Of a DNA stretch of 64,000 nucleotides, positions 2,121 to 63,769 are shown one piece after another (position 1 is the stretch's first letter; every line of letters starts with the position of its first letter). The position numbers were made by a program, and so were the translations under genes. The DNA is from Octopus vulgaris. Taxonomy: Eukaryota. Below the pieces are notes generated by a model. It saw nothing but the letters and a program-made list of their open reading frames with translations, had not been told where the DNA came from and ran no database searches. The stretch is taken from assembly GCA_951406725.2 (NCBI GenBank), contig OX597822.1, positions 66,030,001-66,094,000 of the forward strand, in the 5' to 3' direction.

Positions 2121-2181
<61 letters not shown>

Positions 2182-2182
<1 letters not shown>

Positions 2183-2738
2183 GAGTGAGAGAGCAGTGCA
2201 TGCCATCAAAGTGACACTGGGGTAAAATATACGAAGCCCAGTATACACATCATGACAACCCGTCTGATAAGGGTACACTAGGCACATGCATCACAACCAT
2301 ATATTCGCGACATGGAGATCTCATATTAAGATAAACAACGCATGAACTTGCAGGTGGGGCCCAGTTAGAATTTTCTTCTGGTCGAGTAACCCATCCCGCC
2401 CAAAAGGTCCCTGAATAAGGGTTGTTTAAGGATGTTGAACGAAACACCCATATTTCCAGAAGTGAATTATTCGAACCCCAAAGAATTCCTCTAAACACAT
2501 GGCTAAGATGCTCTCCCACTACTACTGCTCGTGATCAGAGATGCATATATCGTCAGCCACTAAGGGACATGGTCAACTGGCTAAGGCCAAACAACTGACA
2601 AGCAATTCTGTGGTATTGAGCAGAATATTTGCTGTAGCCCATCTTTTATACCAAGACAAAACAATGTACATGATGACACTTCCAATTAGTTAAGATGAGA
2701 AGCCACGAGAGCTACTGCCTGGTACTGCATCAGCTCTA
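2182..2738 (-). mobile_element. Non-coding interspersed repeat of about 550 bp embedded in (TAA)n (copy 1)
   Basis: Reverse-complement homolog at 3477-4020. Both copies end ...ACTGCTCTCTCACTCA followed by a TAA-type tract. Confidence 0.75.
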
Positions 2739-2759
2739 TCATTATTATTATTATTGTTG

Positions 2760-2832
<73 letters not shown>

Positions 2833-2844
2833 CGCCCTTTCTTT

Positions 2845-3162
2845 CTTCCTTATCGCATACCTTGTTTCCAGTTTCCATGTACTTCTCGAAAATTTTGCTC
2901 ACTGTTCCCAGGGCTCCGACAATTATTGGTACTATTGTTACCTTTTTTATCGACCTGCTTAACTTCCAAAGCTAACCTGTCATACCTCTCAACTTTTCTT
3001 TCTTCTCGCCTACCTTGTTGTCATCTGGGCATGCTCTATCTATGATCCAGCATAATTTGTTTTCTTTCTCAATTAAGACTATGTCCGGCTTCCTATTCTC
3101 TATCTCATGGTCACACTGAATCACAAAATCCCATAGAATCTTTACATTTCTATTTTCGACAA
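2845..3162 (-). mobile_element. R4/Dong LINE fragment: restriction-like endonuclease (RLE) domain, degraded
   Basis: VENRNVKILWDFVIQCDHEIENRKPDIVLIEKENKLCWIIDRACPDD, then in another frame TIVPIIVGALGTVSK. This is the RxPD...D RLE motif. Confidence 0.85.
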
Positions 3163-3163
3163 T

Positions 3164-3320
3164 AGGCGCAAGAGTGGCTGTATGGTAAGTAGCTTGCTTA
3201 CCAACCACATGGTTCCGGGTTCAGTCCTGCTCCGTAGCACCTTGGGCAAGTGTCTTCTACTATAGCTTCGGGTCGACCAAAGCCTTGTGAGTGGATTTGA
3301 TAGACGGAAACTGAAATAAG
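3164..3320 (+). mobile_element. tRNA-headed SINE family A (CORE-like), 3'-truncated
   Basis: GAGTGGCTGTATGGTAAG (A-box-like), GGTTCAGTCC (B-box-like), CCTTGGGCAAGT CORE-like motif. Many further copies in the window. Confidence 0.85.
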
Positions 3321-3349
3321 AATAATAATAACAACAACAACAATAAGGC

Positions 3350-4025
3350 ACTGAGTCTCGTGGCTTCTAACTGATTGGAAGTGTTATCATGTGCATTGTT
3401 TTGTCTTGGCATAAAAGGTGGTCTACAACAAATATTCTGCTCAGTACCACAGATTCGTTTGTGTCCTGATGCAGTACAAGGCAGTGGTTGTCATGGCTTC
3501 TGATCTTAACTGATTGGAAGTGTTATCAGGTACATTGTTTGTCTTGGTATAAAATATGGGCTACAACAAATATTCTGCTCAATACTACAGATTTGCTGGT
3601 CAGTTGTTTCACTTTAACCTCTTCAGCATTTTCATTAGTGGCTGACTGTATATGCATCTCTGAAAACGAGCAGAAGTAGTGGAGAAGCATCATATCCATG
3701 TGTTGAGAGGAATTCTTTGGGGTTTGAATAATACACCTCTGGAACCATGGATGTTTTGTTCATCCTCCTTAAATAACACTTATTCAGTGATCTATTGGGT
3801 GGGAGGGGCTACTCGATCTGAAAAAAAATTTTAACTGGGCCTCACCTGAAAGGTCATGCGACTTTATCTCGATATGTAATCATCATGACGTGCACATATG
3901 GTTGTGATGCATGTACCTGGTATACCCTCATCATGCGGGTAATGATCATAGGTGTACTGAGCTTATTATATTTTAGCCCTGTGTCGCTTTGATGGCATGT
4001 ACTGCTCTCTCACTCAGTAATAATA
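3350..4025 (+). mobile_element. 550-bp (TAA)n-associated repeat, copy 2 (3477-4020), preceded by a partial duplicate of its first ~110 bp
   Basis: TGGCTTCT...AACTGATTGGAAGTGTTATCA...CAAATATTCTGCTCA occurs at ~3361 and ~3494. Inverted relative to 2182-2738. Confidence 0.75.
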
Positions 4026-4854
4026 ATAATGATAATATGTTGTCGCAACATCATATTAATACCCCTCAAATAATATTTCAAAACATCACCAAAACATGGT
4101 ATCTTCACATCGTTCAACTTATGAAAATTGTATATGGTCGCACGACCTGCTACAGACAGACAAACAAGACACATTTCTCTAGAATCTCACATTCTAACAT
4201 CTAAAGATACAGAGAGAACACATCGGGTAATACAGTACAGGATATACACTTTCCCCAAAGTAGACGAATGGGGGCTTGAAAGCTGTTTATCAAATTACAT
4301 TTGCTCGATCAGGGCAGAACTGGGACACAACAGCGAAAATAACAAAATCAATAACGCTACTAGGAACAACAACAAAAATTTAACCATAGCATCAATTGTT
4401 TTAATATACATATCACTGCGCCAGTACACTCAGAGATTTTAAGGAGAGGTTACTCCGTACATATCACACGATGTCAAGCTAACTCGAATCTATGTCATTT
4501 ATAATTTAACTAGACAACAATGAATATTTGGCGTTTGTTTTTTGATTTTCATCTTTATGTTTTCTATTCACATTGACTTGAAGCAAACTCATTTACTGAA
4601 TCTTTCGTATACTTATTTTTTACGTTTAGTTTCGGTTTCCCTTTCTTTGTTAAAAAAAAAAAATGGTGGGGAGGTAAGAAAAACAATAACAACAAAATTT
4701 AATGCATGTCCATATTTGGTTTCATTTATTATATATTATATAGTTTTTGTTTTGATATCATAATCATCATCATCATCATCATCATCATGCTTTAATTCTT
4801 CTGTTATTGCTTTTTAATTTTCCATGTTTATTCTCATTGAATATATTTATTTAC

Positions 4855-11480: not shown

Positions 11481-11721
11481 ATATCCAAAGAAAGTGAAAT
11501 ACAAAGACAGAGAGAATGAGAAAAAAGAGGGGGGAGAGAGATGGAGAGAGACAGGGGAGAGAAAAGAAAATCCTCTGTGAACCAGAGATCAGTGTATGCA
11601 GAAAAATAATGTCTTACTATTTATGTTGAGAAGCTTAAAACTTAAACCCGCGATAGTCGAAGGATTACTGTAATTATGTATGCGTATATAGAAAATATTA
11701 AGGAAATAATTCATGTATATT

Positions 11722-12120
11722 GTTTTCTATCCTAGGCACAAAGCCCGAAATTTTTGGGGAGGGAGCCAGTCGATTAGATCAGCTACAGTACGCAACTGGT
11801 ACTCAATTTATCGACCCTGAAAGGATGAAAGGCAAAGTCGACCTTGGCGGAATTTGAACACAGAACGTAGTGGCAAACGAAATACCTATTTCTTTACTAC
11901 CCACAAGGGGCTAAATATAGAGAGGACAAACAAGGACAGACAAATGGATTCAGTCGATTATATCGACCCCAGTGCGTAACTGGTACTTAATTTATCGACC
12001 CCGAAAGGATGAAAGGCAAAGTCAACCCCGGCGGAATTTGAACTCAGAACGTAACAGCAGACGAAATACCGCTAAGCATTTCGCCCGGGGTGCTAACGTT
12101 TCTACCAGCTCGCCGCCTTA
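11722..12120 (-). mobile_element. SINE family B (tRNA head plus Meta-domain-like core), tandem dimer
   Basis: Two units of the form TTTATCGACCCyGAAAGGATGAAAGGCAAAGTC...GGCGGAATTTGAAC; a single head ...CCAGCTCGCCGCCTT at the right end. Confidence 0.88.
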
Positions 12121-13194
12121 TAGTTCGTGTATATTATAAATATTCTAAAAATGAATTGAACATCTTAACATTTTTTTAAAATGTAGTACTATGCTGTGGT
12201 ACAGTATTTCAGCATTATATTATACATTTTATAGCATGATACTAAAAGTGGGTTAAAAAAAAATTTTTTTTTAACTTTAATTCCTAAGTAATATAAGAAA
12301 ACCTGCAATGTGATGTATTTAGACTACATATTGGTACTTTTATTTTAATGGAGAAATTTACTATAATTCATGTTTGTTTTTAATCTACTGAAGTTAAACA
12401 TAGTTGTTAGGTATCTAAACAATACGAAAAAAAAAAACAGGCATGATGATGTTATGAAATTTGTAAACTCTGAAAACACAAAGGAATTAAGCATGCATAT
12501 AAGTATAGACGCATCTTAATGTTCGTCTAAGCGTATATAAATATATTAGACTATATCTAACGTAACTGTAAATGTGGCAAGGCTATTGGAACATTTTCAC
12601 TCAAGCTTGCAAGCACGGATGCCCACCACTTATTTCCTTCTTTCGACTAACCTCTCTCTCACTCTTTCATTTTGTTTCTCTCTTATAGCATGTGTGTATG
12701 TGTGTGCGAGTACTTTTATAATCAAATGCGTGAGGGTTTGTGTGTATGTGTGTGAGTGTGTGTGTACCTTTACATTAGATATAGCAAAGCAAAACGACAA
12801 ACACAAACAAACAAGATATTCAAAATTTGTTAGCTACAAGTTAACAACGAACCGCTATATATACATATATTTAATATATTAGACAGAGCGATGGTTAAAT
12901 TCTAAGAGATAAATTCTAAACGATCCTTATAGACGCCTTTAATTGGAATATATACGACATAATGGGAGTATATAAATCTTTTTTTCTTTATTTATTTGGC
13001 TGAGTTTAATAATTTTGAAAACATAATTCTATGTTCCATTATTACACTGTAACACAGCAAAATAAATTAATTTGACAATTTAAAAAAAAATACAAATAAA
13101 CACAAATACGCACTCGCGCATGAACACTCACGTACGCCCATTCTCTATCCCTTAATGTGTGTCTATTTATATCCCAGTGTATATATATATAAAA

Positions 13195-15899: not shown

Positions 15900-15939
15900 T
15901 ATAATAATAATAATAAAAACAACAGCAACAACAACAACA

Positions 15940-16125
15940 ACAATATTGATAAATACTTAGGAATGAGAACCCAGTTTCGAAATTTCCCCAAGACACCTGA
16001 TGAAGGTTGGAGGGTGTATCAGCCGAAACGTTGTGTTAACAACAATCAAGATGAGGACAAATATCCTTCAAATGTAATTAATGTAAATAATGTACATAAT
16101 TCCTCATCTCTTAAATATAGAACTG
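15940..16125 (+). mobile_element. Hammerhead-bearing non-coding element (family H1), headless copy after (AAT)n/(AAC)n
   Basis: Homologous to both arms at 59172-59635: TTAGGAATGAGAACCCAG...GACACCTGATGAAG...GATGAGGACAAAT...AAATATAGAAC. Confidence 0.8.
15992..16037 (+). ncRNA. Minimal type-I hammerhead ribozyme motif (Penelope-like)
   Basis: GACAC-CUGAUGA-A-GGUUG[GAGGGUGUAU]CAGCC-GAAAC-GUU-GUGUU. Helix I GACAC/GUGUU, helix II of 5 bp, palindromic AACGUU in place of helix III. Confidence 0.8.
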
Positions 16126-16772
16126 TATTAGAAATAATACATACTAAACACTGATATCCAAGAGAGCAAACTGTAGTACAGATTTAAGAGTATTTTTCTC
16201 AAATAGAATAAAATAATTTTTGCTTTTTAAGTAAAACCAAAAGGATAAATACGAAAATTTAAAGCTAAATTACAAACGTGTAGATATTGCTGAATGAAAT
16301 ATCTGTACTTTTCCCACATGACAGCTAAATAATAGATGTCCTGTTTTGGCGGATTTTAAAGATTACCTTGAATATCTGCCGAGAAGAATTCTAGAGTTCT
16401 TCGTATGTGTTAGGGCTGAATGGAGAACATGGTCTATTATAGTTCTTATATTGAAAACATGACAGGGATTTATTTTAGTGACAGAAACTAAAACAGAAAT
16501 TTAAGGTAATTCCTCTGGATGTAAAGAATATTAATATCATTCTGTATGTCTAGTAATACAAAATCCTTCTTTTATTTGCATTAGAAATGTTATTATTCAA
16601 CATAATTCTACATAATTTCGATTGTTCAAGGAAAAAATTACTAAAAGAAACCAGTTGTAATTCGCACGAAAACCTACGAATAACGTAAAAGTATACCTAT
16701 CTGCTAATGTGCATATAAATAAGCTTAGCTCATTCGTGCACACTCATATTTGATATATTACCAGTGATTCAC

Positions 16773-23239: not shown

Positions 23240-23342
<103 letters not shown>

Positions 23343-23598
23343 CATATATATTTATATAAATTTACTATAAATAAAGATAAGATCGTTATTCAAATATCGA
23401 ATTTATCAAGTGGCCAGCATGGGAATAAAAACCTTCAAAGGTAATAAGTATTATTAAAATTATAATTTAGGGTATCTGAGAGATACCACCACGCTTGAAA
23501 TAGCAGCCAAAACTTGACTCTAAAACCACATTAATATGGTTTTAAAGTCAAGTTTTGGCTGCTATTTCAAACGTATCTCTTATATACCTAAATTATAA

Positions 23599-23681
<83 letters not shown>

Positions 23682-23688
23682 GTATTTA

Positions 23689-23733
<45 letters not shown>

Positions 23734-24776
23734 GTATTTATATATGTGTATATATATATATATACATACATACACACAAACATATGATGTGTGTGCGTGG
23801 GCGTGCGTGCTTGTGTGTCAAATGGTGTAATCATTCTTTTCATTATGAACATAATCCTAACATTAAAAACTTTCACATGTTTCCTCATGAGGAAAGTAAT
23901 GCGAACTGATACATAGCATTATTTTCAACATAAAGTAAATATATACCGCAAATCAAAACTAAATATACTCTACCTTTTAAATGCAGTGTGCTTTTTGCGT
24001 TTCTTTTGTGACTGCACTTTTGAGAATCTTAAGTTCTTTTTTAGTTCATGCTAGAGATCCCTACTATTTCTAGACATCCATACTTGGTTCATTCCAGACA
24101 TCTGAACACTTACTCTATGTCATAGTTGCCTCACTAATTCTTTTCTCAATTGTCCTTATTTTCCAACGCTAAATATTTTCATTACGTTGACACATTATTT
24201 CTCTCGTACATGGTCTTTCGTTCTTCCTATCATTTATCGCGCATCTTAAATGTCAACTTCTCATGACGCTGCTTGTATAATTGTAGCCATGCCTTTCTAA
24301 AATTTATTTAACAATTTATATATCACAATCCTCCCTCTCTCCCTCTCTCTCTCTCTCCTTCTCTGCATCACTCTATCCATTTCTCTCTCTCTTTCTCTTT
24401 CTCTCCCGCAAACTCCCTCCCTCTATTTAATTATCTATCGATCTACCGATCGATCGATCTGTCTGTCTGTCCATCTATCTATAAATCCATCAGTCGATCT
24501 ATTCGTCGATCTACCCGTCTGCCTGTCTCTCTATCTATCTTTCTACCTGTCTGTCATTTGTTTGTTCGTTTGTCTGTCTGTCTGTCTGTCTGTCCATTTG
24601 CATGTATGTACATACATGAATACATGCTCTCTGTACATAGATATACATATATACACACACATGTGAGTGTAAGTTTGTGTGTGTGTGGTATGTGTGTGTG
24701 TTTATGTGTAGATTTGTGTAAGTAAATATTTGTCTTTGCACGTGTAGTCTTCACAATATTAATATAAATACAAGAA

Positions 24777-25273: not shown

Positions 25274-25519
25274 AGAGAGAAAATAGTAAAAAGTGAATAA
25301 AGTAAAGAAGGCTTGTTTTAAAAGGTTAAAAAATATATATTTGAGTCATTATGTCAGAGGAATGTTATAATTTTTTTCATACAGTGACATAGTTTTTGCA
25401 AAAACTATGTCACTGTATGAAAAAAGTGTTTTCACTTTTTACTATTTTCTATATATTCAACCACGTGCTTTCACACACCAACTTTCTCACCTATATATAT
25501 ATATATATATATATACACT

Positions 25520-28519: not shown

Positions 28520-28541
28520 ATATATATACATACATATATAT

Positions 28542-28768
28542 TTCTTTATTTCTATATTGCCCACAAGGGGTTAAACATAGAGGGGACAAACAAGGACAGA
28601 CAAATGGATTAAGTCGATTACATCGATCCTAGTGCGAAACTGGTACTTTATCGACTCCGAAAGGATGAAAGGCAAAATCGACCTCAGAGGAATTTGAACT
28701 CAGAACGTAACGCAAGACGAAATACCACTAAGCATTTCGACCGGCGAGCTAACGATTCTGCCAGCTCG
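28542..28768 (-). mobile_element. SINE family B monomer
   Basis: CCCACAAGGGG...GAAAGGATGAAAGGCAAA...GAATTTGAACTCAGAACG...TCTGCCAGCTCG. Confidence 0.85.
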
Positions 28769-35490: not shown

Positions 35491-36020
35491 CACACAACAC
35501 ACAACACACAACGCATGCAAATACTCACAAAATTGCAATGTTTCCGCACAATTAATGTGGAACATGATGGTACCAGACAAACTACAGTAGCATTGGCAGC
35601 TAAAAGCCTGAAACTATAGATATATTTGCAGAAAAATCATAACAATACGCATGCCAAGAGCAGTAAGAGAAAAATACTGTCATTCAGATAAAGTAGAGAA
35701 GTAACCGGTTCTTATTCATTTCTGATTCTCAGAATAAAAGCTATGCATACACGTCAAATGAAATTTACCATTAATCAGCTGTCGTTCGGGAGGACTGGGT
35801 GATATTTTTTTCAAAAGAGGAGAGTGGGTTATTCAGAAGGTGAGAGGAAAAGTGTCAGGATGTCAAAATAATAAGAACAAAGAGAATGAGACTATAGATG
35901 AAAATAAGCAAAAGCGACTAGTGAGTATTGTAAAAATTGGAGTGTTGATAAATTCGTGACCGTGTGGAAGCTAAAGGGTGCGTATATTAGAATATATGCG
36001 TCCATTATATGGTCTTCGTA

Positions 36021-36600
36021 AAGCAGCGAGCTGGCAGAAACGTTAGCACGCCGGGCGAAATGCTTACCAGTATTTCGTCTGCCGCCACGTTCTGAGTCCA
36101 AATTCCACCGAGGTCCATTTTGCCTCCTTTCGGGGTCGATAAATTAAGTACCAGTAACGCACTGGAGTCGATATAATCGACTTTATCCGTTTGTCTGTCC
36201 TTGTTTGTCCTCTCTGCGTTTAGCCCCTTGTGGGTAGTAAAGAAATAGGTATTTCCTCTGCCGCTACGTTCTGAGTTCTAATTCCGCCGAGATCGACTTT
36301 GCCTTTCATCCTTTCGGGGTCGATAAATTAAGTACCAGTTACGCTCTGGGGTCGATATAATCGACTTAATCCGTTTGTGTCTGTCCTTGTTTGTCCATTC
36401 TGTGTTTAGCCCCTTGTGCGTAGTAAAGAAAAGAGGTATTTCGTCTGATTTTGCGTTCAAATTCAAATTTCGCCGATATCGACTTTGCCTTTCATCGTTT
36501 CGGGGTCGATAAATTAAGTACCTGTTGAGTACTGGGGTTGATCTAATCGACTGGCACCCCTCACCCAAAATTTCGAGCCTTGAGCCTAGAGTAGAAAAGG
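36021..36600 (+). mobile_element. SINE family B tandem trimer
   Basis: One head GCGAGCTGGCAGAAACGTTAGCACGCCGGGCG, then three units with TTTCGGGGTCGATAAATTAAGTACC joined at GAAAwAG|GTATTTC. Confidence 0.9.
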
Positions 36601-36659
36601 TTATATGTTCTATGCGAGGGTGAATATATCTTTTTCTTTTCCCTTCTCTCAGTAATTAG

Positions 36660-36808
36660 ATTACGGCCATGCTTGAGCAGCTCTGTCTTGAAGAATTTTT
36701 CTCGGATGAATCGACCCCAGTACTTTTGCCGAACCGCTAGTTTACAGTGACTTACACACACATCAACGCCATTATGAAGCGGTGAGGGGAACAAACGCAG
36801 GCATACAT

Positions 36809-36887
<79 letters not shown>

Positions 36888-37035
36888 CTTACACACACAT
36901 ATACGGCTTCCTTTTTGCATTCTCGGTCCACCACATCCACTCATAATGCTTTGGTCGGTCGGAGGCTAATGTAGAAGATACTTATCCAGATACGCAATGA
37001 GACTAAACCTGGAGCCATGTAGTCGGGAGGCAAAC
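36660..37035 (-). mobile_element. SINE family A, diverged
   Basis: GGCCATGCTTGAGCA...TTTTGCCGAACCGCTAG...ATCCACTCATAATGCTTTGGTCGG. Confidence 0.7.
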
Positions 37036-37164
37036 TTCTTATCAGAAAAGCACTTACCGAATGTAATAAGAAATTAGATAAAAATTTTATCTAGACTTAA
37101 GTTTTTCAAATTGCAATTATAGTTAGAGAAACATTTACACGATTGTAACTCTTCTTCCACTGCA

Positions 37165-37885
37165 GCTAAAAAGTGGGTTCGGAGCAGACATGCTGCATTT
37201 AAGTTCTTGACAATGTTGCATCCTGACAGTTCGATATTCTTTACTATTCAAGGCACAAGGCCCGAAATTTTAGAGGGAGGGAGCCAGCACGCAACAGGTA
37301 CTTAATTTATCGACCCCGAAACGATGAAACGATGAAAGGTACAGTCGACTTCAGCGGAATTTGAACTCAGGACTCTAAACACAGAGAGGATAAAACAAGG
37401 ACAGACACACGGATTCATTCGATTACATCGACCCCAATGCGTAACTGGTACTTATTTAATCGACCCCGAAACGATGAAAGGCAAAGTCGACCTCAGCGGA
37501 ATTTGAACTCAGAACGTAGCGGCAGATGACATACCTATTTCTTTATTACCCACAAGGGGCTAAACATAGAGGGGACAAACAAGGACAGACATATGTATTA
37601 AGTCAATTACATGGACCCCAGTGCGTAACTGGTACTTAATTTATCGACCCCGAAAAGATGAAAGGCAAAGTCGACCTCGGCGAAATTTGAACTCAGAACA
37701 TAACGGCAGACGAAATACGGCTACGCATTTCGCCCGGCGTGCTAACGTTTCTGCCAGCTTGCCGCATTCCAGCCAACGCGACGTTGACAGAAAGCTTTAG
37801 TGTGTTTACGAAGAGGAAGCTATTGACAATAGCAACGTTCATACATGGATTAAAAATTTTAAAGAAGAGGAAAACAAGGTTAGAA
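37165..37885 (+). pseudogene. Mariner transposase N-terminal HTH relic interrupted by a SINE B array
   Basis: VRSRHAAFKFLT before the SINE; RDVDRKL*CVYEEEAIDNSNVHTWIKNFKEEE after it (VYG....V..W...FK pattern). Confidence 0.45.
37236..37767 (-). mobile_element. SINE family B tandem trimer
   Basis: Three ATCGACCCCGAAA.GATGAAA...ATTTGAACTCAG units; head ...TCTGCCAGCTTGCCGC at the right end. Confidence 0.88.
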
Positions 37886-52779: not shown

Positions 52780-53624
52780 ATTTCTTTAATGCCCACTGGG
52801 CAATAAAAAAGAAATAAAACAATAAAGAAATACAACAATGAGGTGACAAACAAGGACAGACAGAGGGATTAAGTCGATTACATCGATACCAGTAATTAAC
52901 TGGAACTTATTTAATCGACCCCGAAAGGATGAAGGGCAAAGTCGACCTCGGCGGAATTTGAACTCAGAACGTAAAGACGGGTGAAATACCTATTTCTTTA
53001 CTACCCACAAGGGGCTAAACACAGAGGAGACAAACAAGGACAGACAGACGGATTAAGTCGATTATATCGACCCCAGTTCGTAACTGGTACTTAATTTATC
53101 GACCCCGAAGGTTGAAAGGCAAAGTCGACCTAGGTGAAATTTGAACTCAGAACGTAACGGCAGACGAAATACCTATTTCTTTATTACCCACAAGGGGCTA
53201 AACACAGAGGGGACAAACAAGGACAGACATAGGTATTAAGTCGATTATATCGACCCCAGTGCGGAACTGGTACTTAATTTATCGACCCCGAAAGGATGAA
53301 AGGCAAAGTCGACCTCGGCGGAATTTGAACTCAGAACGTAACGACAGACGAAATACCGCTAAGCATTCCGCCCCGGGTGCTAACGTTTCTTATGTCTTTA
53401 TTGCCTACAAGGGGCTAAACATAGAGAGGACAAACAAGGACAGGCAATGGGATTAAGCCGATTACATCGACACCAGTACGTAACTGGTACTTATGTAATC
53501 GAACCCGAAAGGATGAAAGGCAAAGTCGAGCTCGGCAGAATTTGAACTCAGAACGTAACGGGACACGAAATACAGCTCAGCATTTCGCCAGGCGCGCTAA
53601 TGTTTCTTCCAGCTCGCCGCCTTC
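52780..53624 (-). mobile_element. SINE family B tandem tetramer (about 183-bp units)
   Basis: Four ACAAACAAGGACAG...CGATTA.ATCGA...GAAAGGCAAAGTCGA...TTTGAACTCAGAACGTAA units; complete head only at the right end. Confidence 0.92.
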
Positions 53625-53707
53625 TATTGTCAGAACATCACGGCAAGAAAATGTAGATATACTGGACTGAAATAAAATTGAATAAACTTTGTTACTGAAA
53701 GCTATAG

Positions 53708-55759: not shown

Positions 55760-56746
55760 CTTTATTTTAAGCAGCAGAAAATTCAACAAAATCTGTTATT
55801 TGTTGCCGTTCATCAGACAGTTTTTGCTAGAATGGAACATATATATAATTCAATCTATACTTTACAAACGCTACACCTTTAAAGAAATGGACTTGTTTGA
55901 TTCTTTAGAAAAAACGGTCAATTTCGAGCGATAAACAAAAGGTCAAAAATATATGATATATATATAAAAACTTATAAAAATTATAAAATCCGAGGAAAAT
56001 CGAAAAAATGTTGCCGTTAATGAAGACAGTACAAATTAATGCATAGAAATTAAACCTGTTATAAATACTGCAATACATATTTATATTAAAATCCACTATA
56101 TATATCAACATACACAAGGATGCGCGTAAACGCCATACATACATATACAGACGTATGAATATGAATCTAAATTATACACATAAAAGCATGTGTACATATA
56201 TTCACGCAAATGTTCTGCACGCAAGCTAAAATTCATAGATGAATTTTAGCTTGCGTGCGAGACGGTTTGCGTGAATATATGTACACATGCTTTTATGTGT
56301 ATAATTTAGATTCATATTCATACGTCTGTATATGTATGTATGGCGTTTACGCGCATCCTTTTGTGTATGTTGATATATATATGTGGATTTTAATATAAAT
56401 ATGTATTGCAGTATTTATAACAGGTTTAATTTCTATGCATTAATTTGTACTGTCTTCATTAACGGCAACAGGTTTTTTCCTCGGTATTTTCCTCGGATTT
56501 TATAATTTTTATAAGTTTTTATATATATATACATATATTTTGACCTTTTTGTTTATCGCTCGAAGACTGACCGTTTTTTCTAAAGGGCCAATCAAACAAG
56601 TCCATTTCTTTTTAAAGGTGTAGCGTTTGTAAGAGTATAGATTGAATTAATATATATGTTCCATTCTAGCAAAAACTGTCTGATGAACGGCAACGAGAAA
56701 CTCAGAGTAACAGATTTTGTTGAATTTTCTGCTGCTTAAAATAAAG
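55760..56746. repeat. Near-perfect palindrome of about 990 bp (arms ~480/510 bp, 2-nt centre at 56237-56238)
   Basis: ...GCAAGCTAAAATTCAT-AG-ATGAATTTTAGCTTGC...; arms traceable out to CTTTATTTTAAGCAGCAG / CTGCTGCTTAAAATAAAG. Confidence 0.95.
56676..56713 (+). ncRNA. Minimal type-I hammerhead ribozyme motif (family H3)
   Basis: CUGU-CUGAUGA-A-CG[GCAA]CG-A-GAAA-CUC-A-GAG-UA-ACAG. Helix I CUGU/ACAG, GNRA-capped helix II, quasi-palindromic ACUCAGAGU helix III, GUA triplet. Confidence 0.72.
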
Positions 56747-56815
56747 CATATTACTCTACCACTGGTATTTGAGTACTCTTTTTTCCACCTTGTTTCACAT
56801 TTATGTGTTTACTCC

Positions 56816-56859
<44 letters not shown>

Positions 56860-56873
56860 TATACATATACATA

Positions 56874-56959
<86 letters not shown>

Positions 56960-57096
56960 GATTAATCAGCCGAAATTTGCTATGATGATCCGGTTTCTGA
57001 CTGAAGATTAAAGGCTTCCAATGACCCGTCCGTTTTTTTTTGTGTTCCTCCCTTTGTGTATTTCACGTTCTTGTTTCTTTATATATAATTTTTATA

Positions 57097-57173
<77 letters not shown>

Positions 57174-57385
57174 TGAGAGGAAAAGGAATAGAAACAGAGC
57201 TAGATTGCTAGATAAATAAACATATAAATGGACCGATAAATAAATAAATATATAGATAGATAGCAGATAGATAGATATATGTTAAGATAAATGCATTTAA
57301 ATAGATATATACTTTAAAAACCACGGTTTCTTCATATTTGACTACGATCTATGCGTTCTAAATTCTATCTTTGTACTTTTGTGAA

Positions 57386-57445
<60 letters not shown>

Positions 57446-57636
57446 AGTCTATCTACCTATCTACCTATCTATCTATTTACCTATCTATCTATCTATCTGC
57501 CATCTATCTATCTGCTATCTATATATTTGTTTATCTATCTATCCCTTTCTCTAATTCTCTCTCTCACCCTCTCTTTCTTTATATATATAAACATATGTGT
57601 ATGTGTGTGTGGAGGGAGAGAAAGAAAGAGAGATAA

Positions 57637-57714
<78 letters not shown>

Positions 57715-58386
57715 CGATAGACAAATATATATAAGCTTACATATACGTATCTTTCCATATATGAATTCATAATATAAGTATATTTGCATGTTCGTATGTG
57801 TGCAAGATTTGATTAAACAAGTTTCGTATAGACTATTTCTCTTGAATGTTATCGGCATGCAAATTTTTAGCCTGAATCTGTAATCAAATATATTCACAAG
57901 GATCTCTAAAGAGAATCGCAAATCTTCGTAAATCTATTTTCCAGAGTGTACGGCTTATTTATTTGCTTTGATCTTTGGTGCTTTATTATTTCTGTTTGTT
58001 ATCCTGTATTATTTCCTTTCAAATTCAATCTTGTTTCTCTTTGGCTTGGCTTGGCTTGGCTTGGCTTGGCATGGTTTGGCTGGGGGATTTTACAATAACG
58101 GGGAAGTTTTCCAAAAAAAACAGCAAACTTTATTCTATCACTGTAAAATGTTTTGAAAAACAAACTAATCTTTGTGAACAAACAACATGAGATATCGGTT
58201 TATCAACGATTTGCATATCTTTGAATGTTTAAATGATTCTTGGAGATATGAATATACGGCGCTTGTTTATCAGTGCATTTATACATATACAAGAATACGT
58301 GTCAGTACAGAAATGCCAATTCTAACGCACATGATCGCGTAAAATATAAATACACAAAACCATACGTACATATATACATTTATATT

Positions 58387-58425
<39 letters not shown>

Positions 58426-59171
58426 ATGCTTCAAGCTATATATGTATGCATATTCTTATTGTATTTATTCGAACTTTTAATCAGATGTAAATGCGTACAA
58501 AAATAGATACAAAGTTAACACTTATAACAGAAACATATGCAAATTTTATTTTTGAAATATGTATAGATCTTTCTCTGATTATATGTGTGTGTGCGTGCGT
58601 GTGTGTATATGAGCATGTGTGTGTGTGTGTGTGGGTGTGTGTGTGCGCGTGTGGGTGAGTGTGTGTGTGTGCGTGCGTGTGTGTGTGTGCGTGTGTGTGT
58701 GTGCGTGAGTGTGTGTGCAAATGATTATCATGAATAATAATATACGCAAACATATATTACAGATATGCACTCTCGCACTCTCACATAACATACCTATATA
58801 AATCGTAGGACCAAAAAATAGGAAATATGGCGATGGAAAACACAATATTTGAAATAGATTAATATATTCCCCAATTTCAACACAAGATTTGAACTTTTCA
58901 CAGTGCAATGTGAATTTTTATTATTCAAAGAATATTTTTATTTCTGTTTCTGTTGCTTACGTTTTATTTGATTTATTTGAGGTTTATCTTCTTCACAGCA
59001 CTTGGATAATTTACCTTTCCGTCCGATTTAAGAGTCATATATTTGCCTATTATTGCAGCTGTACTAATGATAACCAGTTCTATAATGTAGGGCTTCATTT
59101 AATATTAGTCTAACTGTTACTTTACCTGTTTATAATTTATATTTTTATAATGCCTGATCACAACATAATAC

Positions 59172-59454
59172 TGTTCTATATTTAAAGGATTATGTGCATT
59201 ATGAGAGATTATGTACATTATTTACATTATTTACATTTGGCGATATTTGTCCTCATGTTGTTTGTCGTTAGCACAACGTTTCGACTGATATACCGTCCAG
59301 GCTTCATCAGGTGTCTTGGAAAAATTTCGAACCTGGAGTTTTCATTCCTAAGGTATTTTTCGATATGACTTTATAATTATTATTATTATTATTCAGGTCA
59401 CTGCCTGAAATCGAACTCGGAATCTTGGGGCTAGTAGCCCGCACTCTTAACCAT
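59172..59454 (-). mobile_element. Family H1 element with tRNA-like head, (AAT)n spacer and hammerhead
   Basis: Minus strand TGGTTAAGAGTGCGGG-CTACTAG-CCCCAAGATTCCGAGTTCGATTTCAGGCAGTGACCTG(AAT)n...GACACCTGATGAAG...GAAACGTTGTG...AAATATAGAAC. Confidence 0.8.
59270..59315 (-). ncRNA. Minimal hammerhead motif (H1), core intact, one helix II mismatch
   Basis: GACAC-CUGAUGA-A-GCCUG[GACGGUAUAU]CAGUC-GAAAC-GUU-GUGCU. Confidence 0.7.
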
Positions 59455-59463
59455 GAGCATATG

Positions 59464-59635
59464 GTGACCTGAATAACAACAACAACAACAACAACATCGA
59501 AAAATACTTTAGGAATGAGAACCCAGGTCCGAAATTTCCCTAGGACACCTAATGAAGGCTGGATGGTATATCAGCCGGAACGTTGTGTTAACAAGAAGCA
59601 AGATGAGGACAAATGCCCGTCAAATGTGAATAAAG
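59464..59635 (+). mobile_element. Second, inverted H1 copy (headless) with mutated hammerhead core
   Basis: GTGACCTGAAT(AAC)n...GACAC-CTAATGA-AGGCTG...CAGCC-GGAAC-GTT-GTGTT; core changes CUGA>CUAA and GAAA>GGAA. Confidence 0.8.
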
Positions 59636-60441
59636 TACTGATCACATGTTGTAGCCATTTTTACTAATTGGATATTTGTATGTATTATTAGTATTCAATT
59701 AGGTAGCTAACAAAGATAATTAGAAATATCATTACTGTCTTTTGGTTTGTATATTTGCGGGTATTCCCCACCTTCTACTTCATAGTTTCCAAAAATATAT
59801 TAGTGAGCACAAAAAGCCTACCATACACACATACAAATACATATGCGCGCACACACTGAATTTTTTCATAGACTAGTGTCTTGGTTTTCAAATAGATCTA
59901 ACGGTATAAACTGAGTCCAAAAGACGGCTTGGAGAGGTATGGAATGTAATCTAAATCTTCCACATTTCTGTATTGCTAGTGCAAGCGAGTAGTAGTTACT
60001 CTTCTTTTAAATTCTGTGTAGTGTATATCAAGTTGTAGTCATCTCTAACTGGATGGAATGCATAATCTCTCTATAACAGAAAGGAACGCTATATATATAT
60101 ATATAGTAGTAATAGAAAAGGAGGAAATTTTGATTATCCCCACTTGGTGTGTTGTAATATATATCAGAAATTAAAAAGGAAAATACGCACACTTTACATA
60201 GTTTTAATATAATTTTTGATAGATCAACCGGTTTCGCTTTCGTTATTCATGATATTAAGGTTTATTTATTTGAATAAGTACTTTTTAAGAAGAAAGTTAT
60301 GCCCATGTTGTATGTGATGATATTTACGAGTGAATGACATCACAAATAGAAAAACAAGGGGAGGTAATTGGTTGTCGTTTTTATTGTTATTGTTGTGGGC
60401 AAGGAAGATAACTGTTTGACTTTCGGTAAGGGGAGGAGTAT

Positions 60442-60504
<63 letters not shown>

Positions 60505-61074
60505 GTTGTTGAAAAATATAGTAGTAAGCGCCACGAGCCTGCCACTGGCCATAAAGAGGTTGTATGATATGAAATTGCTTTGCTCAATCTCACTGCTATT
60601 AATCGGTGGTAAGAGAAAACAATAGCTTCAGGTAGATGGCTAGAAACATGTACCTACGTTCTGTATAAATTCCACAATGGACAAATTCCATTTTTTTCAC
60701 TTCTTCACTGTCTGGTGGTTCCCTATACCTTCATTCGATCAAACGGCCTGTTGGAGTGCCCATTTCTATAGTACTATTTTAGATTCTAATACTCCTAGAT
60801 ACTTATAACTCTCTCCTCCTAGTTTTGCGTGCCTGTTAATAATGAAAAAACATCAAACAGTGCTTCAACTCTGTGTGTGTGTGTGTGTGTGTGGATATGT
60901 AGAGAACGCGGTTTTCTATACTTAGTCACAGTTCGTTTCCTCCCCTTTTAAGTATGTCTGTTTATATATATATTTGTATGTGTTAGTGCATGTGTCTGTA
61001 ATTCTAGTTGCTATGTATCTTTCTAAATAAACACATACAAACACGGAATAGAACGCTATATATATATATATATA

Positions 61075-61880
61075 TGAAATTATCGCTTGCAATTTGGCAA
61101 AACGGATTTGCCACAATAGTGTCTGACAGAACAACACGGGACCTTCGCCTTCAAGACCTCAAAACAACGCTTACAGAAAGACAATATCCGCCCTCACTTA
61201 TAGACGAGAGAATTAAACGTTCCAAAAAATTAGACATGCAAATACTAAGAACAACAAAACATAACACCACACCTCATCTCAAAACACTACTTTTTATATC
61301 AATACACTCTTGAACCAGTGATGCATTCAACACTATTGTGTACAAATCTTCCTTTACTAACTAGAGATACAGAAATGAACGACATCATGGAAACGCACAA
61401 ACTCATCGAATGCAAAAAGCAACACAAATCGCTAAAGAGACCGCTAATAAATACGAAATTTTACAAAACAACCACGAAGCCAACGGCTAAAAGATGTAGA
61501 TGCCCAAACTGTGGAACCTGCCCCTACTTACTTGAAGTTTCTCATTTCCTTTTCAAACAAGGACAGAGGTTCACAATTAAAAATAGTTTCACTTGTGATT
61601 CTGAGAAGCTAATTTATGTAATAACCTGCTCGGGCTGAGGACACAACTATATTCGATAGACGAGTATGACCTTGAGACCGAGAACCACTCTACATAAAGA
61701 GCAAATCCGTTTCCCGTAATACAGAAATTTCTCTGTGAACATATAGAAAAATGTGCATATAACATCAAACCAAATTCCACAGTCTTCCCCTTCTACCAGT
61801 GCAAAGACATAGTTTCTCCATAAGAACGTTTAAATAAAGAATTTTTTTCATTGAAAAATACAGAACACGTCTTAATAGGC
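61075..61880 (+). mobile_element. Penelope-like element fragment: RT thumb end, Cys-rich linker and GIY-YIG endonuclease; decayed
   Basis: IVSDRTTRDLRLQDLKTTLTERQYPPSLID; KRCRCPNCGTCPY; FTCDSEKLIYVITCSG*GHNYIR*T...LR.R...H; ERLNKE...LN. The Cys linker suggests the Neptune group. Confidence 0.85.
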
Positions 61881-61981
61881 ACGCAAAACCAACTTTTTCT
61901 TTTTACGTATTTCAATTCACGATTACGTCACTGTACATAAATCCCCTCACTAAACAAGTCTTCGAAACTTTTTTTTGTGTG

Positions 61982-62064
<83 letters not shown>

Positions 62065-62247
62065 CTCCCCTTACCGAAAGTCAAACAGTTATCTCCCTTG
62101 CCCACAACAATAACAATAAAAACGGCAAACAATTACCTCCCCTTGTTTTTCTATTTGTGATGTCATTCACTCGTAAATATCATCACATACAACATGGACA
62201 AAACTTTCTTCTTAAGAAAGTACTTATTCAAATAAATAAACCTTAAT

Positions 62248-62278
62248 ATCATGAATAACGAAAGCGAAACCGGTTGAT
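62248..62278 (+). ncRNA. Degenerate hammerhead motif in the putative pLTR (mirror copy at 60223-60253, minus strand)
   Basis: AUC-AUGAAUA-ACGAAAGC-GAAA-CCGG-UU-GAU. Helix I AUC/GAU and palindromic AACCGGUU are retained; CUGANGA has two substitutions. Confidence 0.45.
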
Positions 62279-62974
62279 CTATCAAAAATTATATTAAAAC
62301 TATGTAAAGTGTGCGTATTTTCCTTTTTAATTTCTGATATATATTACAACACACCAAGTGGGGATAATCAAAATTCCTCCTTTTCTATTACTACTACTAT
62401 ATATATATATATAGCGTTCCTTTCTGTTATAGAGAGATGATGCATTCCATCCAGTTAGAGATGACTACAACTTGATATACACTACACAGAATTTAAAAGA
62501 AGAGTAACTACTACTCGCTTGCACTAGCAATACAGAAATGTGGAAGATTTAGATTACATTCCATACCTCTCCAAGCCGTCTTTTGGACTCAGTTTATACC
62601 GTTAGATCTATTTGAAAACCAAGACACTAGTCTATGAAAAAATTCAGTGTGTGCGCGCATATGTATTTGTATGTGTGTATGTATGTGTATGTGAGTCTGT
62701 GTGTGTGAATATGCGTGATTGAATGTGTGTATGTATATGTTAATGTGTGTAAGCATGTAACATTGGAATAACATTTCACAGAGTACAGAAACATGTCTCG
62801 TCAGATTTTGCAAGTTACGGAATGAAATGACACGGAGATAATTCGGATAAAAATACTGCTTCATTTTGATTACTTTTAATCTTTGGAGCACTTGTTTTAG
62901 ATGGTAACTGACAGATAAAAACTATATTGTTAGATCATTTTATTTTGATAACAAAGTTGGGGTGCGACGCCTAG

Positions 62975-62984
62975 GTCACGTGAC
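62975..62984. promoter_or_regulatory. GTCACGTGAC palindrome (CLEAR/USF-type E-box), overlapping TGACGT
   Basis: Exact 10-mer in a locally CpG-richer, non-repetitive stretch. No linked gene visible. Confidence 0.25.
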
Positions 62985-63769
62985 GTGTTACATGTCTTTG
63001 AGACTGGGAACGACGGAGGATGGGCGAAACATACCATCATTCGTTGCCCTTGTACTCAAAATTCGATATAGTCCAGTTATACAGAGTAATAGATGATGTC
63101 CCGAATATAACAGTTTCCTCTGACATATTCTCACGCAGTTACTGTTTGCAGAGTTTCACATATTTGGATATGGTGGATTCGAGTTTATTGCAGTAGATGC
63201 CCGTACAAATTGATGTGTACGTAGATAAGAACGACGTGATTGCGAAGTAAAGTCCTCAACCAAACAGAATGACTTTAAGGTCGTTTACATTATGTAGGTA
63301 TAACTTTTGCAGTATTATTAGTGATGCATGGAGTATTTCTTGTTAAAACAGTGATTTCTATGGTTGAATTATAATCTATCATGCATACATGTCACTTCTG
63401 AATTGCAATACAACTTTGCTTTATTAACTGAACGAGTTTGCGCTTTTACCAAGCTATATGTATAACAAAGCAATTAGGATATGTTTAATACATAGTACGA
63501 GTTACGTTCTGCATTTCAGTACGATAAACTCGCAAAACATGTCAGTTCAATTCTTATTCCATACTGCTGTAAAGTCCTCGAATTGTTTAGCGTTATAATG
63601 TTTCATCTTATCATGTTTAATTTTATATTGTTAATATTATAGTGAAATTTAAAAGGTGATGACGTGATTCCGTGTGCATCATTACATTTAAAGCATGTTA
63701 TACTGACATTCTAGTAATACGCTATCATTAATTCCAGTAATAGTTTTGAAAGAAAGATTGTTTCTGATA

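What the first reader, a model, noticed from the sequence alone, without database searches (positions are those of the whole stretch)
55760..62681. Three unrelated hammerhead-carrying elements in 7 kb share the same fold-back architecture, with ribozymes pointing outward
Seen: three inverted structures (55760-56746, 59172-59635, 59822-62681) with no evident sequence similarity to each other. Each has a minimal hammerhead motif on the minus strand of the left arm and the plus strand of the right arm. In the first two, one ribozyme core is intact and the other broken. Established: Penelope-like elements (PLEs) carry minimal hammerheads with palindromic helix III in their pLTRs and often integrate with an inverted pLTR. 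Inference: several non-autonomous ribozyme RNAs are mobilised by PLE RT/GIY-YIG proteins through fold-back priming, generating palindromes that also capture neighbouring DNA. This would be a genome-wide source of long dsRNA in a lineage known for heavy A-to-I editing.
Basis: partly seen in the sequence, partly recalled or inferred. Interest (0 to 1): 0.75.

Follow-up and report, generated by a model that had tools for sequence, protein, structure and literature searches.

The report
Three Penelope retrotransposon ends, back-to-back
The three palindromes are real and are the tail ends of three different Penelope-type jumping genes, a known kind whose end repeats carry a hammerhead RNA motif; two have the back-to-back shape typical of their families, likely made by copying one RNA from two fixed start points, and the third is likely a later local duplication.

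Summary
The three inverted structures exist, are unrelated in sequence, and their hammerhead motifs point outward. They are not three non-autonomous RNAs but 3' ends of protein-coding Penelope-like elements (PLEs) of three clades: a young Hydra-type family (intact 727-aa ORF elsewhere), a Penelope/Poseidon-type family whose end repeat starts with a tRNA-like segment, and an old Neptune-type family with an A3-U8 core. Head-to-head insertion with a 'tail' on one end is textbook PLE anatomy. The genome sharpens it: neighbours are divergent 26:1 and 19:0; classifiable pairs join one tailed and one tailless end (27/27, 23/25, 16/16, 5/5; none alike); both arms share private variants; 9 of 27 pairs cannot be simple fold-backs. 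Best reading: twin priming on one RNA, with snap-back only at some junctions. Element 3 is a later local duplication (both arms tailed, 30 shared mutations, 270 nt of flank). The broken ribozyme of element 1 is probably a long-read error. Editing has only a weak hint. The scan noted similar things on other DNA of this genome.

The parts
55760..56236 (-). Element 1 left arm: inverted, 5'-truncated, tailless copy of the 3' UTR of a young Hydra-type PLE (unit positions 2773-3281), joined to (TA)n; hammerhead core at 55810-55816 with helix III and GAAA partly deleted
   Evidence: 14 gap openings, all deletions
56234..56817 (+). Element 1 right arm: same 3' UTR (unit 2768-3352) with the 71-nt tail (56747-56817), joined to (TA)n; 99.7% identical to the reference unit
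56670..56720 (+). Intact minimal type I hammerhead (core CUGAUGA 56680-56686, palindromic helix III, predicted cut after 56709)
   Evidence: sequence; two copies co-fold as a double hammerhead; 2705 exact copies
56228..56241 (.). Centre of palindrome 1: a natural 3-bp hairpin of the element, the likely snap-back point
   Evidence: snap-back inferred
56956..57099 (+). Fourth repeat between two (TA)n runs, with hammerhead blocks in site-GAAA-CUGAAGA (SGC-like) order; this copy is cut off at the predicted cleavage site
   Evidence: 3499 first-look candidates
59171..59460 (-). Element 2 left arm: tailed end repeat of a Penelope/Poseidon-type PLE: tRNA-like head (A and B boxes), (AAT)n, hammerhead (core 59304-59310), tail; 92% to family consensus
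59463..59637 (+). Element 2 right arm: headless, tailless copy; hammerhead core mutated (CUAAUGA at 59549, GGAA); 89% to consensus
59822..60504 (-). Element 3 left arm: local inverted duplicate of 61995-62681 (PLE 3' UTR, tail and about 270 nt of flank)
61078..62397 (+). Old 5'-truncated Neptune-type PLE: broken thumb, zinc-finger linker and GIY-YIG coding remnant, 3' UTR interrupted by (TA)n at about 61986-62041, A3-U8 hammerhead at 62251 (decayed), tail; 85-88% to other copies
62414..62681 (.). Flank of the PLE (relic of an unrelated old repeat), near-identical only in the two arms; other genome matches are 68-85% and shorter

Best explanation
The three structures are 3' ends (pseudo-LTRs) of protein-coding Penelope-like retrotransposons of three clades; elements 1 and 2 are primary head-to-head insertions, likely made by twin priming on one RNA, and element 3 is likely a later local inverted duplication. 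Shown: family identity, divergent orientation, one tailed plus one tailless end per insertion, both arms from one source sequence, (TA)n targets for families 1 and 3. Inferred: the RT/GIY-YIG protein nicks both strands of the target; one 3'-OH starts cDNA at the outer site (unit ~3352 in family 1), the other at the inner site 71 nt upstream (~3281); both copy the same RNA or RNA of the same locus; the two cDNA ends are joined by microhomology, by annealing at a short palindrome when both run off the same RNA 5' end (CTAG at ~3200 in family 1; the tRNA-like head in family 2), or after one cDNA snaps back, as at this window's element 1. The ribozymes point outward simply because they lie 40-60 nt from each 3' end. 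Element 3: a break in (TA)n folded back onto the (TA)n inside the old PLE 1.5 kb away and copied 680 nt of DNA (inferred).
For: Intact 727-aa RT+EN ORF in 3356-nt tandem units continuous with element 1; GIY-YIG coding sequence runs into the tRNA-like head in L119, L175, L177, L192 and, inverted, L174; zinc-finger plus GIY-YIG in element 3. Orientation: first 100 listed family-1 motifs give 26 divergent, 1 convergent, 3 tandem neighbours within 7 kb; family 2, 19 of 30 loci divergent, 0 convergent (L192 by hand). Ends: 27 of 27 pairs with both ends seen (tail-biased set); 23 of 25 in a set chosen without tail bias, 2 with off-site ends, 0 alike; 16 of 16 classifiable in family 2; 5 of 5 in family 3. 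9 of 27 pairs are non-nested. Arm-to-arm differences 184 against 580 to other loci over 52,393 compared bases in 40 loci; 28 of 29 asymmetric pairs closer than the median other locus. In vitro a PLE cuts and extends both strands and starts RT at two sites that bound the tail (PMC11167929). Element 3: 30 differences from consensus shared by both arms against 4 and 9 private.
Against: No biochemical test. 10 of 27 junctions are symmetric within 20 nt and 8 more are nested, all compatible with fold-back. Arm likeness could come from later gene conversion or from polishing in the assembly. 7 of 37 and 6 of 40 family-1 loci and 11 of 30 family-2 loci showed no second arm. In vitro there was no strand preference of start site. 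The pile-up of 5' ends at 3197-3204 (17 of 40 loci) abuts the edge of the search pattern. No full-length family-2 or family-3 element was recovered; Pfam found nothing in the family-1 ORF. In run X8 the arm contig of element 3 carries the right-arm letter at 60064 and does not continue into the left flank, so the left copy is not independently confirmed. The window locus and L129 fell out of the comparison.
Confidence: 0.72

Rival explanations
1. Pure fold-back (self-priming): one cDNA snaps back and copies itself, and the endonuclease cuts the hairpin at the inner site, giving the tailless arm (first reader; Arkhipova et al. 2013 propose self-priming, Craig et al. 2021 EN-mediated resolution).
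For: Short natural hairpins at symmetric junctions, including this window's element 1; head-only inversions of about 22-30 nt in 5 family-2 loci (L101, L105, L114, L120, L183); shared variants between arms; PMC3846280.
Against: 9 of 27 family-1 pairs have a tailless arm that reaches more than 25 nt further 5' than the tailed arm, so neither arm contains the other, e.g. L147 with 0 arm differences and 15 shared variants.
Confidence: 0.17
2. Element 2 is a true SINE: a Pol III transcript from the tRNA-like head is the template that the PLE enzyme copies in trans, so one of the three is non-autonomous in practice.
For: 12 of 46 arm 5' ends fall within -4..+6 of the head start and only 4 reach into the ORF (two spurious short hits dropped from 48); A and B boxes conserved; precedent of tRNA-headed hammerhead SINEs in schistosomes (PMC6765202).
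Against: The same sequence is the natural end of the coding element, whose stop codon lies in the A box; a hairpin just upstream of the head could stop RT on a long RNA; ARAGORN calls no tRNA in 12 of 12 loci. This is compatible with the best explanation rather than exclusive of it.
Confidence: 0.45
3. Element 3 is PLE-mediated 3' transduction: a read-through RNA of the old copy was reverse-transcribed and inserted inverted next door.
For: The arm holds 3' UTR, tail and flank; PLEs can capture host DNA (PMC3846280); one junction is in (TA)n.
Against: It does not start at either family start site; it landed 1.5 kb from its source; none of the 5 inverted family-3 pairs has two tailed arms; flank occurs nowhere else at high identity.
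Confidence: 0.12
4. The palindromes are assembly artefacts (fold-back chimeric reads).
For: Deletion-riddled arm in element 1 and L129 matches missed bases in nanopore reads of inverted duplicates (PMC7229812); element 3's left copy unconfirmed.
Against: The two arms end at different, family-fixed sites and each joins its own flank; dozens of loci obey the rule, old diverged ones too; element 3's arms differ by 7 substitutions and 4 indels, not by deletions only. The artefact reading is likely only for the deletions in element 1's left arm (about 0.7).
Confidence: 0.04

Closest known systems
Hydra-clade PLEs (Craig et al. 2021, PMC8557442; section 11, section 20 and passages read)
   Same: Family 1: RWK, DKT, CxCX5C linker, no CCHH, CxxC and CxH around E and N, (TA)n target, hammerhead, tandem plus inverted insertions, tail on one end.
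   Different: Unit 3356 nt (they say generally under 3 kb); tail 71 nt (30-40 given for PLEs); very young and abundant (2705 exact motif copies).
Penelope/Poseidon PLEs, Poseidon_Ac (Frangieh et al. 2024, PMC11167929; parts 1-2 of 4 read) and Adineta Pen2a (Arkhipova et al. 2013, PMC3846280; passages)
   Same: C-terminal GIY-YIG without zinc-finger linker, two 3' ends bounding a tail of about 35 nt, head-to-head inverted pLTR with palindromic junctions.
   Different: Family 2's pLTR begins with a tRNA-like A/B-box segment overlapping the stop codon, and 5' ends pile up there; strict pairing of one end of each type is counted here.
Neptune-clade PLEs
   Same: Family 3: CX4CxxC linker, two cysteines and histidines in the GIY-YIG core, (TA)n target, two 3' ends about 55-60 nt apart.
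   Different: Hammerhead core A3-U8 (AUGAAUA in 22 of 23 copies read); the window copy has a later inverted duplication with flank.
Minimal PLE hammerheads (Cervera and De la Pena 2014, PMC4209133; passages)
   Same: Minimal type I motif, palindromic helix III, dimer fold; they already report pairs on opposite strands 100-700 bp apart and a U3-A8 core.
   Different: A3-U8 was not in the passages I saw; Lunse et al. 2017 could not be read.
Non-LTR retrozymes (PMC7229834, passages; bioRxiv 10.64898/2026.07.22.740005, part 1 of 5) and schistosome hammerhead SINEs (review PMC6765202, passages)
   Same: Hammerhead-bearing repeats linked to PLEs; promoter followed by ribozyme resembles family 2.
   Different: None of the three is a tandem non-coding monomer array; each continues into a PLE ORF.
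L1 twin priming (recalled, not read)
   Same: Two target 3'-OH ends prime on one RNA; L128 shows the first cDNA stopping at the inner site of the upstream unit.
   Different: L1 gives inversion without duplication and a variable inner site; here the same stretch is copied twice from two fixed sites.

Membership tests
Penelope-like element (EN+) | Single ORF with RT and GIY-YIG endonuclease | tested here: met
   Family 1: 727-aa ORF with RT motifs read by eye (Pfam silent). Families 2 and 3: endonuclease end only.
Penelope-like element (EN+) | Partial tandems plus an adjacent inverted 5'-truncated copy | tested here: met
Penelope-like element (EN+) | Tail on one end only | tested here: met
   27/27, 23/25, 16/16, 5/5; not met by element 3 itself
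Hydra clade (family 1) | RWK, DKT, CxCX5C linker, no CCHH, CxxC/CxH flanking E and N | tested here: met
   ORF against section 11 of PMC8557442
Hydra clade (family 1) | (TA)n target and canonical hammerhead | tested here: met
Hydra clade (family 1) | Placement in the RT tree | not tested
   no reference proteins fetched
Penelope/Poseidon clade (family 2) | C-terminal GIY-YIG with internal cysteines, no zinc-finger linker | tested here: met
   L192 translation
Penelope/Poseidon clade (family 2) | RT domain and tree placement | tested here: inconclusive
   two candidate regions held no full-length copy
Neptune clade (family 3) | CX2-5CxxC linker before a C-terminal GIY-YIG with CCHH | tested here: met
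   window and 5 loci; RT not recovered
Minimal type I hammerhead | Core, G10.1-C11.1, stems I-II, palindromic helix III | tested here: met
   Family consensuses and element 1 right arm; family 3 with A3-U8; the other five window copies are damaged
Minimal type I hammerhead | Self-cleavage | not testable with these tools
   only contigs, no raw reads
Non-LTR retrozyme | Non-coding tandem monomers, one ribozyme each | tested here: not met
   all three continue into PLE coding sequence
tRNA-derived SINE (family 2) | A and B boxes at the 5' end | tested here: met
tRNA-derived SINE (family 2) | Separate from the autonomous partner | tested here: not met
   ORF stop lies in the A box
tRNA-derived SINE (family 2) | Transcription by Pol III | not testable with these tools
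   no raw RNA reads or ChIP data

The most novel reading that the evidence does not exclude
Across three PLE clades every inverted insertion is written by a dimeric enzyme that copies one RNA twice, once from each target strand and from a different fixed site per strand; internal starts in the 5' pseudo-LTR yield thousands of ribozyme-bearing mini-palindromes (one clade feeding them from a Pol III promoter), and these head-to-head PLE ends are a main source of the long, near-perfect dsRNA behind the heavy A-to-I editing of this lineage.
Probability: 0.2. Interest if true: 0.75.

Novelty: new member of a known kind. Interest (0 to 1): 0.42.

Why it matters
How PLEs make their inverted repeats and one-sided tail is an open question (PMC8557442, PMC11167929). 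A young, intact, (TA)n-targeting family with thousands of copies gives exact predictions (start sites ~3281 and ~3352 on opposite strands, RNA 5' end near 3200) and rules out fold-back as the only route. The source of the exceptional dsRNA potential of octopus was left unannotated in PMC5625713; PLE palindromes are a testable candidate. It also warns that one arm of tight palindromes may be corrupted in the assembly.

Tried and rejected
Rfam: only microRNA look-alikes among rows shown; no hammerhead model hit. ARAGORN: no tRNA in 12 loci. Pfam: nothing on the family-1 ORF. My own strict descriptor found 6 motifs in 314 kb against 0-1 in 10 shuffles but missed the window copies. First idea that family 1 is Naiad: rejected, its endonuclease is C-terminal. 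First idea that family 2 is a free-standing SINE: changed. Editing of the template before reverse transcription: no A>G excess in family-1 arms (72 A>G, 142 T>C, 132 G>A, 114 C>T). Inverted duplication of host flank at fresh insertions: not seen in the 25-nt flanks of 37 family-1 loci. Sequencing runs: no RNA holder listed; the best share of left-arm words was 0.33, near the 0.39 shared with other family copies, which cannot separate error from a private insertion. Laying contigs on element 3 neither bridged the left junction nor showed an empty site. Two regions fetched for a full-length family-2 element held none. Unbiased density of family 2: 8 copies in about 830 kb, only the window's inverted, lower than in motif-selected loci. 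In 314 kb, 21 inverted repeats (arms 50+ nt, 80%+) of which 3 clearly and 2 possibly PLE-type, so PLEs are not the only source. Literature searches for octopus+SINE+hammerhead, SINE+Penelope+tRNA-derived+hammerhead, Penelope+twin priming, Penelope-like+Pol III+tRNA-like+pLTR gave no paper describing these points; the library lacks most subscription papers, Lunse et al. 2017 and Ohshima and Okada 1994 were not seen, and no supplements were read (those of PMC8557442 and PMC4209133 list families and cores and may bear on the Hydra and A3-U8 claims).
Full report
Setting. The window is G000:C9:66030001-66094000 of a 2.8-Gb animal genome. That it is an octopus is my inference from recalled repeat sequences and size; no call names it.

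Observation. Self-comparison gives the three inverted structures. The families share no sequence beyond one 48-nt AT-rich hit. Hammerhead motifs face outward in all three.

Element 1. The right arm is 99% identical to 39 other top hits. Two of them lie in 3356-nt tandem units with an intact 727-aa ORF that has the Hydra-clade marks of PMC8557442: RWK, DKT, CxCX5C, no CCHH, CxxC/CxH. Pfam is silent on it. Element 1 is unit 2768-3352 plus an inverted 2773-3281, each end in (TA)n. Of 37 loci, 30 are inverted, all head-to-head; in all 27 with both ends in view one end stops at ~3352 and the other at ~3281. That set was biased to tails, so I took the ribozyme motif alone: 2705 exact copies; among the first 100 listed, neighbours within 7 kb are 26 divergent, 1 convergent (two separate insertions) and 3 tandem. 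Of 25 of those pairs fetched, 23 are tail plus tailless, 2 have off-site ends, none is alike; 8 of 14 apparent singles were also inverted. In 17 of these 40 loci an arm starts at 3197-3204, a CTAG just before the ribozyme, giving palindromes of about 240 bp; this peak abuts the search pattern's edge, so its height is uncertain. A TATA-like sequence lies about 30 nt upstream, which fits a transcription start (inference).

Which mechanism. Of the 27 pairs, 10 are symmetric within 20 nt, 8 nested and 9 non-nested. Non-nested pairs cannot come from one cDNA copying itself. Yet both arms come from one source: 184 arm-to-arm differences against 580 to other loci over 52,393 bases in 40 loci, and 28 of 29 asymmetric pairs are closer than the median other locus (the window locus and L129 dropped out of this comparison; gene conversion or polishing could contribute). 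A purified PLE protein cuts and extends both strands, starts at two sites bounding the tail and does not need ribozyme cleavage (PMC11167929). Hence twin priming on one RNA, with snap-back or palindrome annealing at the junction. This window's junction is a natural 3-bp hairpin, so snap-back is likely here. Self-priming at head-to-head junctions is already proposed (PMC3846280), and the inverted copy and one-sided tail are textbook (PMC8557442); opposite-strand hammerhead pairs were seen in Schistosoma (PMC4209133).

The broken left ribozyme. The left arm has 14 gap openings, all deletions, and 4 substitutions in 498 nt; the right arm has 1 and 1; background predicts 0.4. L129, another tight palindrome, has 9 in 252 nt; most other symmetric loci are clean. 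Missed bases in one arm are a known nanopore fault (PMC7229812). I do not know the platform of this assembly, and public runs could not decide.

Element 2. A 290-nt repeat: tRNA-like A/B boxes, (AAT)n, hammerhead, two 3' ends about 35 nt apart; 1218 exact motif copies. I first read it as a SINE; earlier scan notes pointed to a coding parent, and I confirmed it: in L119, L175, L177 and L192 a Penelope/Poseidon-type GIY-YIG runs into the head, its stop inside the A box. In 30 motif-selected loci 19 are divergent, none convergent; 16 of 16 classifiable pairs are tail plus tailless, 3 have a short arm. In 30 top-hit loci 23 are divergent, 17 of 17 classifiable pairs heterotypic (the window copy by hand) and 6 have a short inverted head. 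12 of 46 arm starts lie at the head start and 4 pass into the ORF, so a short, possibly Pol III, RNA may be a template. In unselected DNA only 1 of 8 copies was inverted. The window pair is old (92% and 89% to consensus) and both ribozymes are damaged.

Element 3. 61078-62397 is a broken Neptune-type PLE, 85-88% to other copies. Its family core is AUGAAUA, a 3-8 pair swapped to A-U, in 22 of 23 copies read, and the consensus co-folds as a double hammerhead. Five other family loci are ordinary tail/tailless inversions. The window's arms are different: both tailed, 30 shared departures from consensus against 4 and 9 private, 270 nt of flank found at high identity only here, 7 substitutions and 4 indels in 653 nt. 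So the duplication came long after the insertion; one junction is in (TA)n, the other in TG/CA-rich sequence, as a DNA-level template switch would leave (inference). In run X8 one contig covers the outer arm at depth 82 against 23-60 nearby, but it has the right-arm letter and does not enter the left flank: unconfirmed either way.

dsRNA and editing. Octopus has an exceptional share of loci able to form long dsRNA, its repeats were not annotated there, and Penelope is heavily edited in lizard (PMC5625713). Here one run guessed to be RNA (X16) has seven A>G sites at 56582-56654 absent from two large DNA-type runs, in two contigs of depth about 5; the other RNA-guess run has none. These may come from any family copy. 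In 314 kb, 3 of 21 inverted repeats are clearly PLE-type and 2 possibly. The claim stays open.

Verdict. Real, PLE-made, largely known; the value is in the sharp footprint of mechanism and two variants (tRNA-headed pseudo-LTR, A3-U8 core) that I did not find in the searches named under Tried and rejected.

Noticed in passing
window 56956-57099 (+); L236-L260: High-copy repeat (3499 candidates) with hammerhead blocks in S-G-C order: stem III AGCAAA/UUUGCU, stem I UCAGAA/UUCUGA, stem II AGCC/GGCU with 5 extra bases after the core; this copy and L248 begin at the predicted cut site, 23 of 25 loci extend upstream.
   Followed up: partly
L198, L201, L205, L216, L220, L229 and others: Stereotyped ~240-bp perfect mini-palindromes of family 1 centred on CTAG just before the ribozyme; they score as microRNA-like hairpins in Rfam, below curated cut-offs.
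   Followed up: partly
window 61045-61077 and 62398-62419: The old PLE's two flanks are inverted for 6 nt beyond (TA)n (GAACGC / GCGTTC); L050 has 50-nt inverted flanks around a family-3 copy.
   Followed up: partly
L023:3-2035 / L137: Another Neptune-type PLE with a 562-aa open frame (RVT_1 hit) and a U3-A8 hammerhead; family 1 inserted in its terminal (TA)n.
   Followed up: partly
window 15926-16130 (+): Single tailed family-2 copy with an intact hammerhead core at 15997.
   Followed up: partly
window 52807-53626, 36020-36598, 37284-37769, 11717-12122, 28541-28768: Tandem 184-217-nt units of another abundant repeat; 36020-37768 form an inverted pair without a hammerhead.
   Followed up: no
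window 25372-25425, 23275-23762, 2161-4037: Other palindromes: perfect 54-nt, AT-rich 490-nt, and 573-nt arms at 83%.
   Followed up: no
window 62975-62985: GTCACGTGAC palindrome (USF/TFE-type E-box, recalled) in CpG-richer unique sequence 300 nt beyond element 3; possibly a promoter; no long ORF follows in the window.
   Followed up: no
L128 (G000:C21:32434881-32444872): The tailed arm stops at unit 3278 of the upstream unit, exactly where the tailless arm starts: the L1-type twin-priming signature on a tandem RNA.
   Followed up: partly
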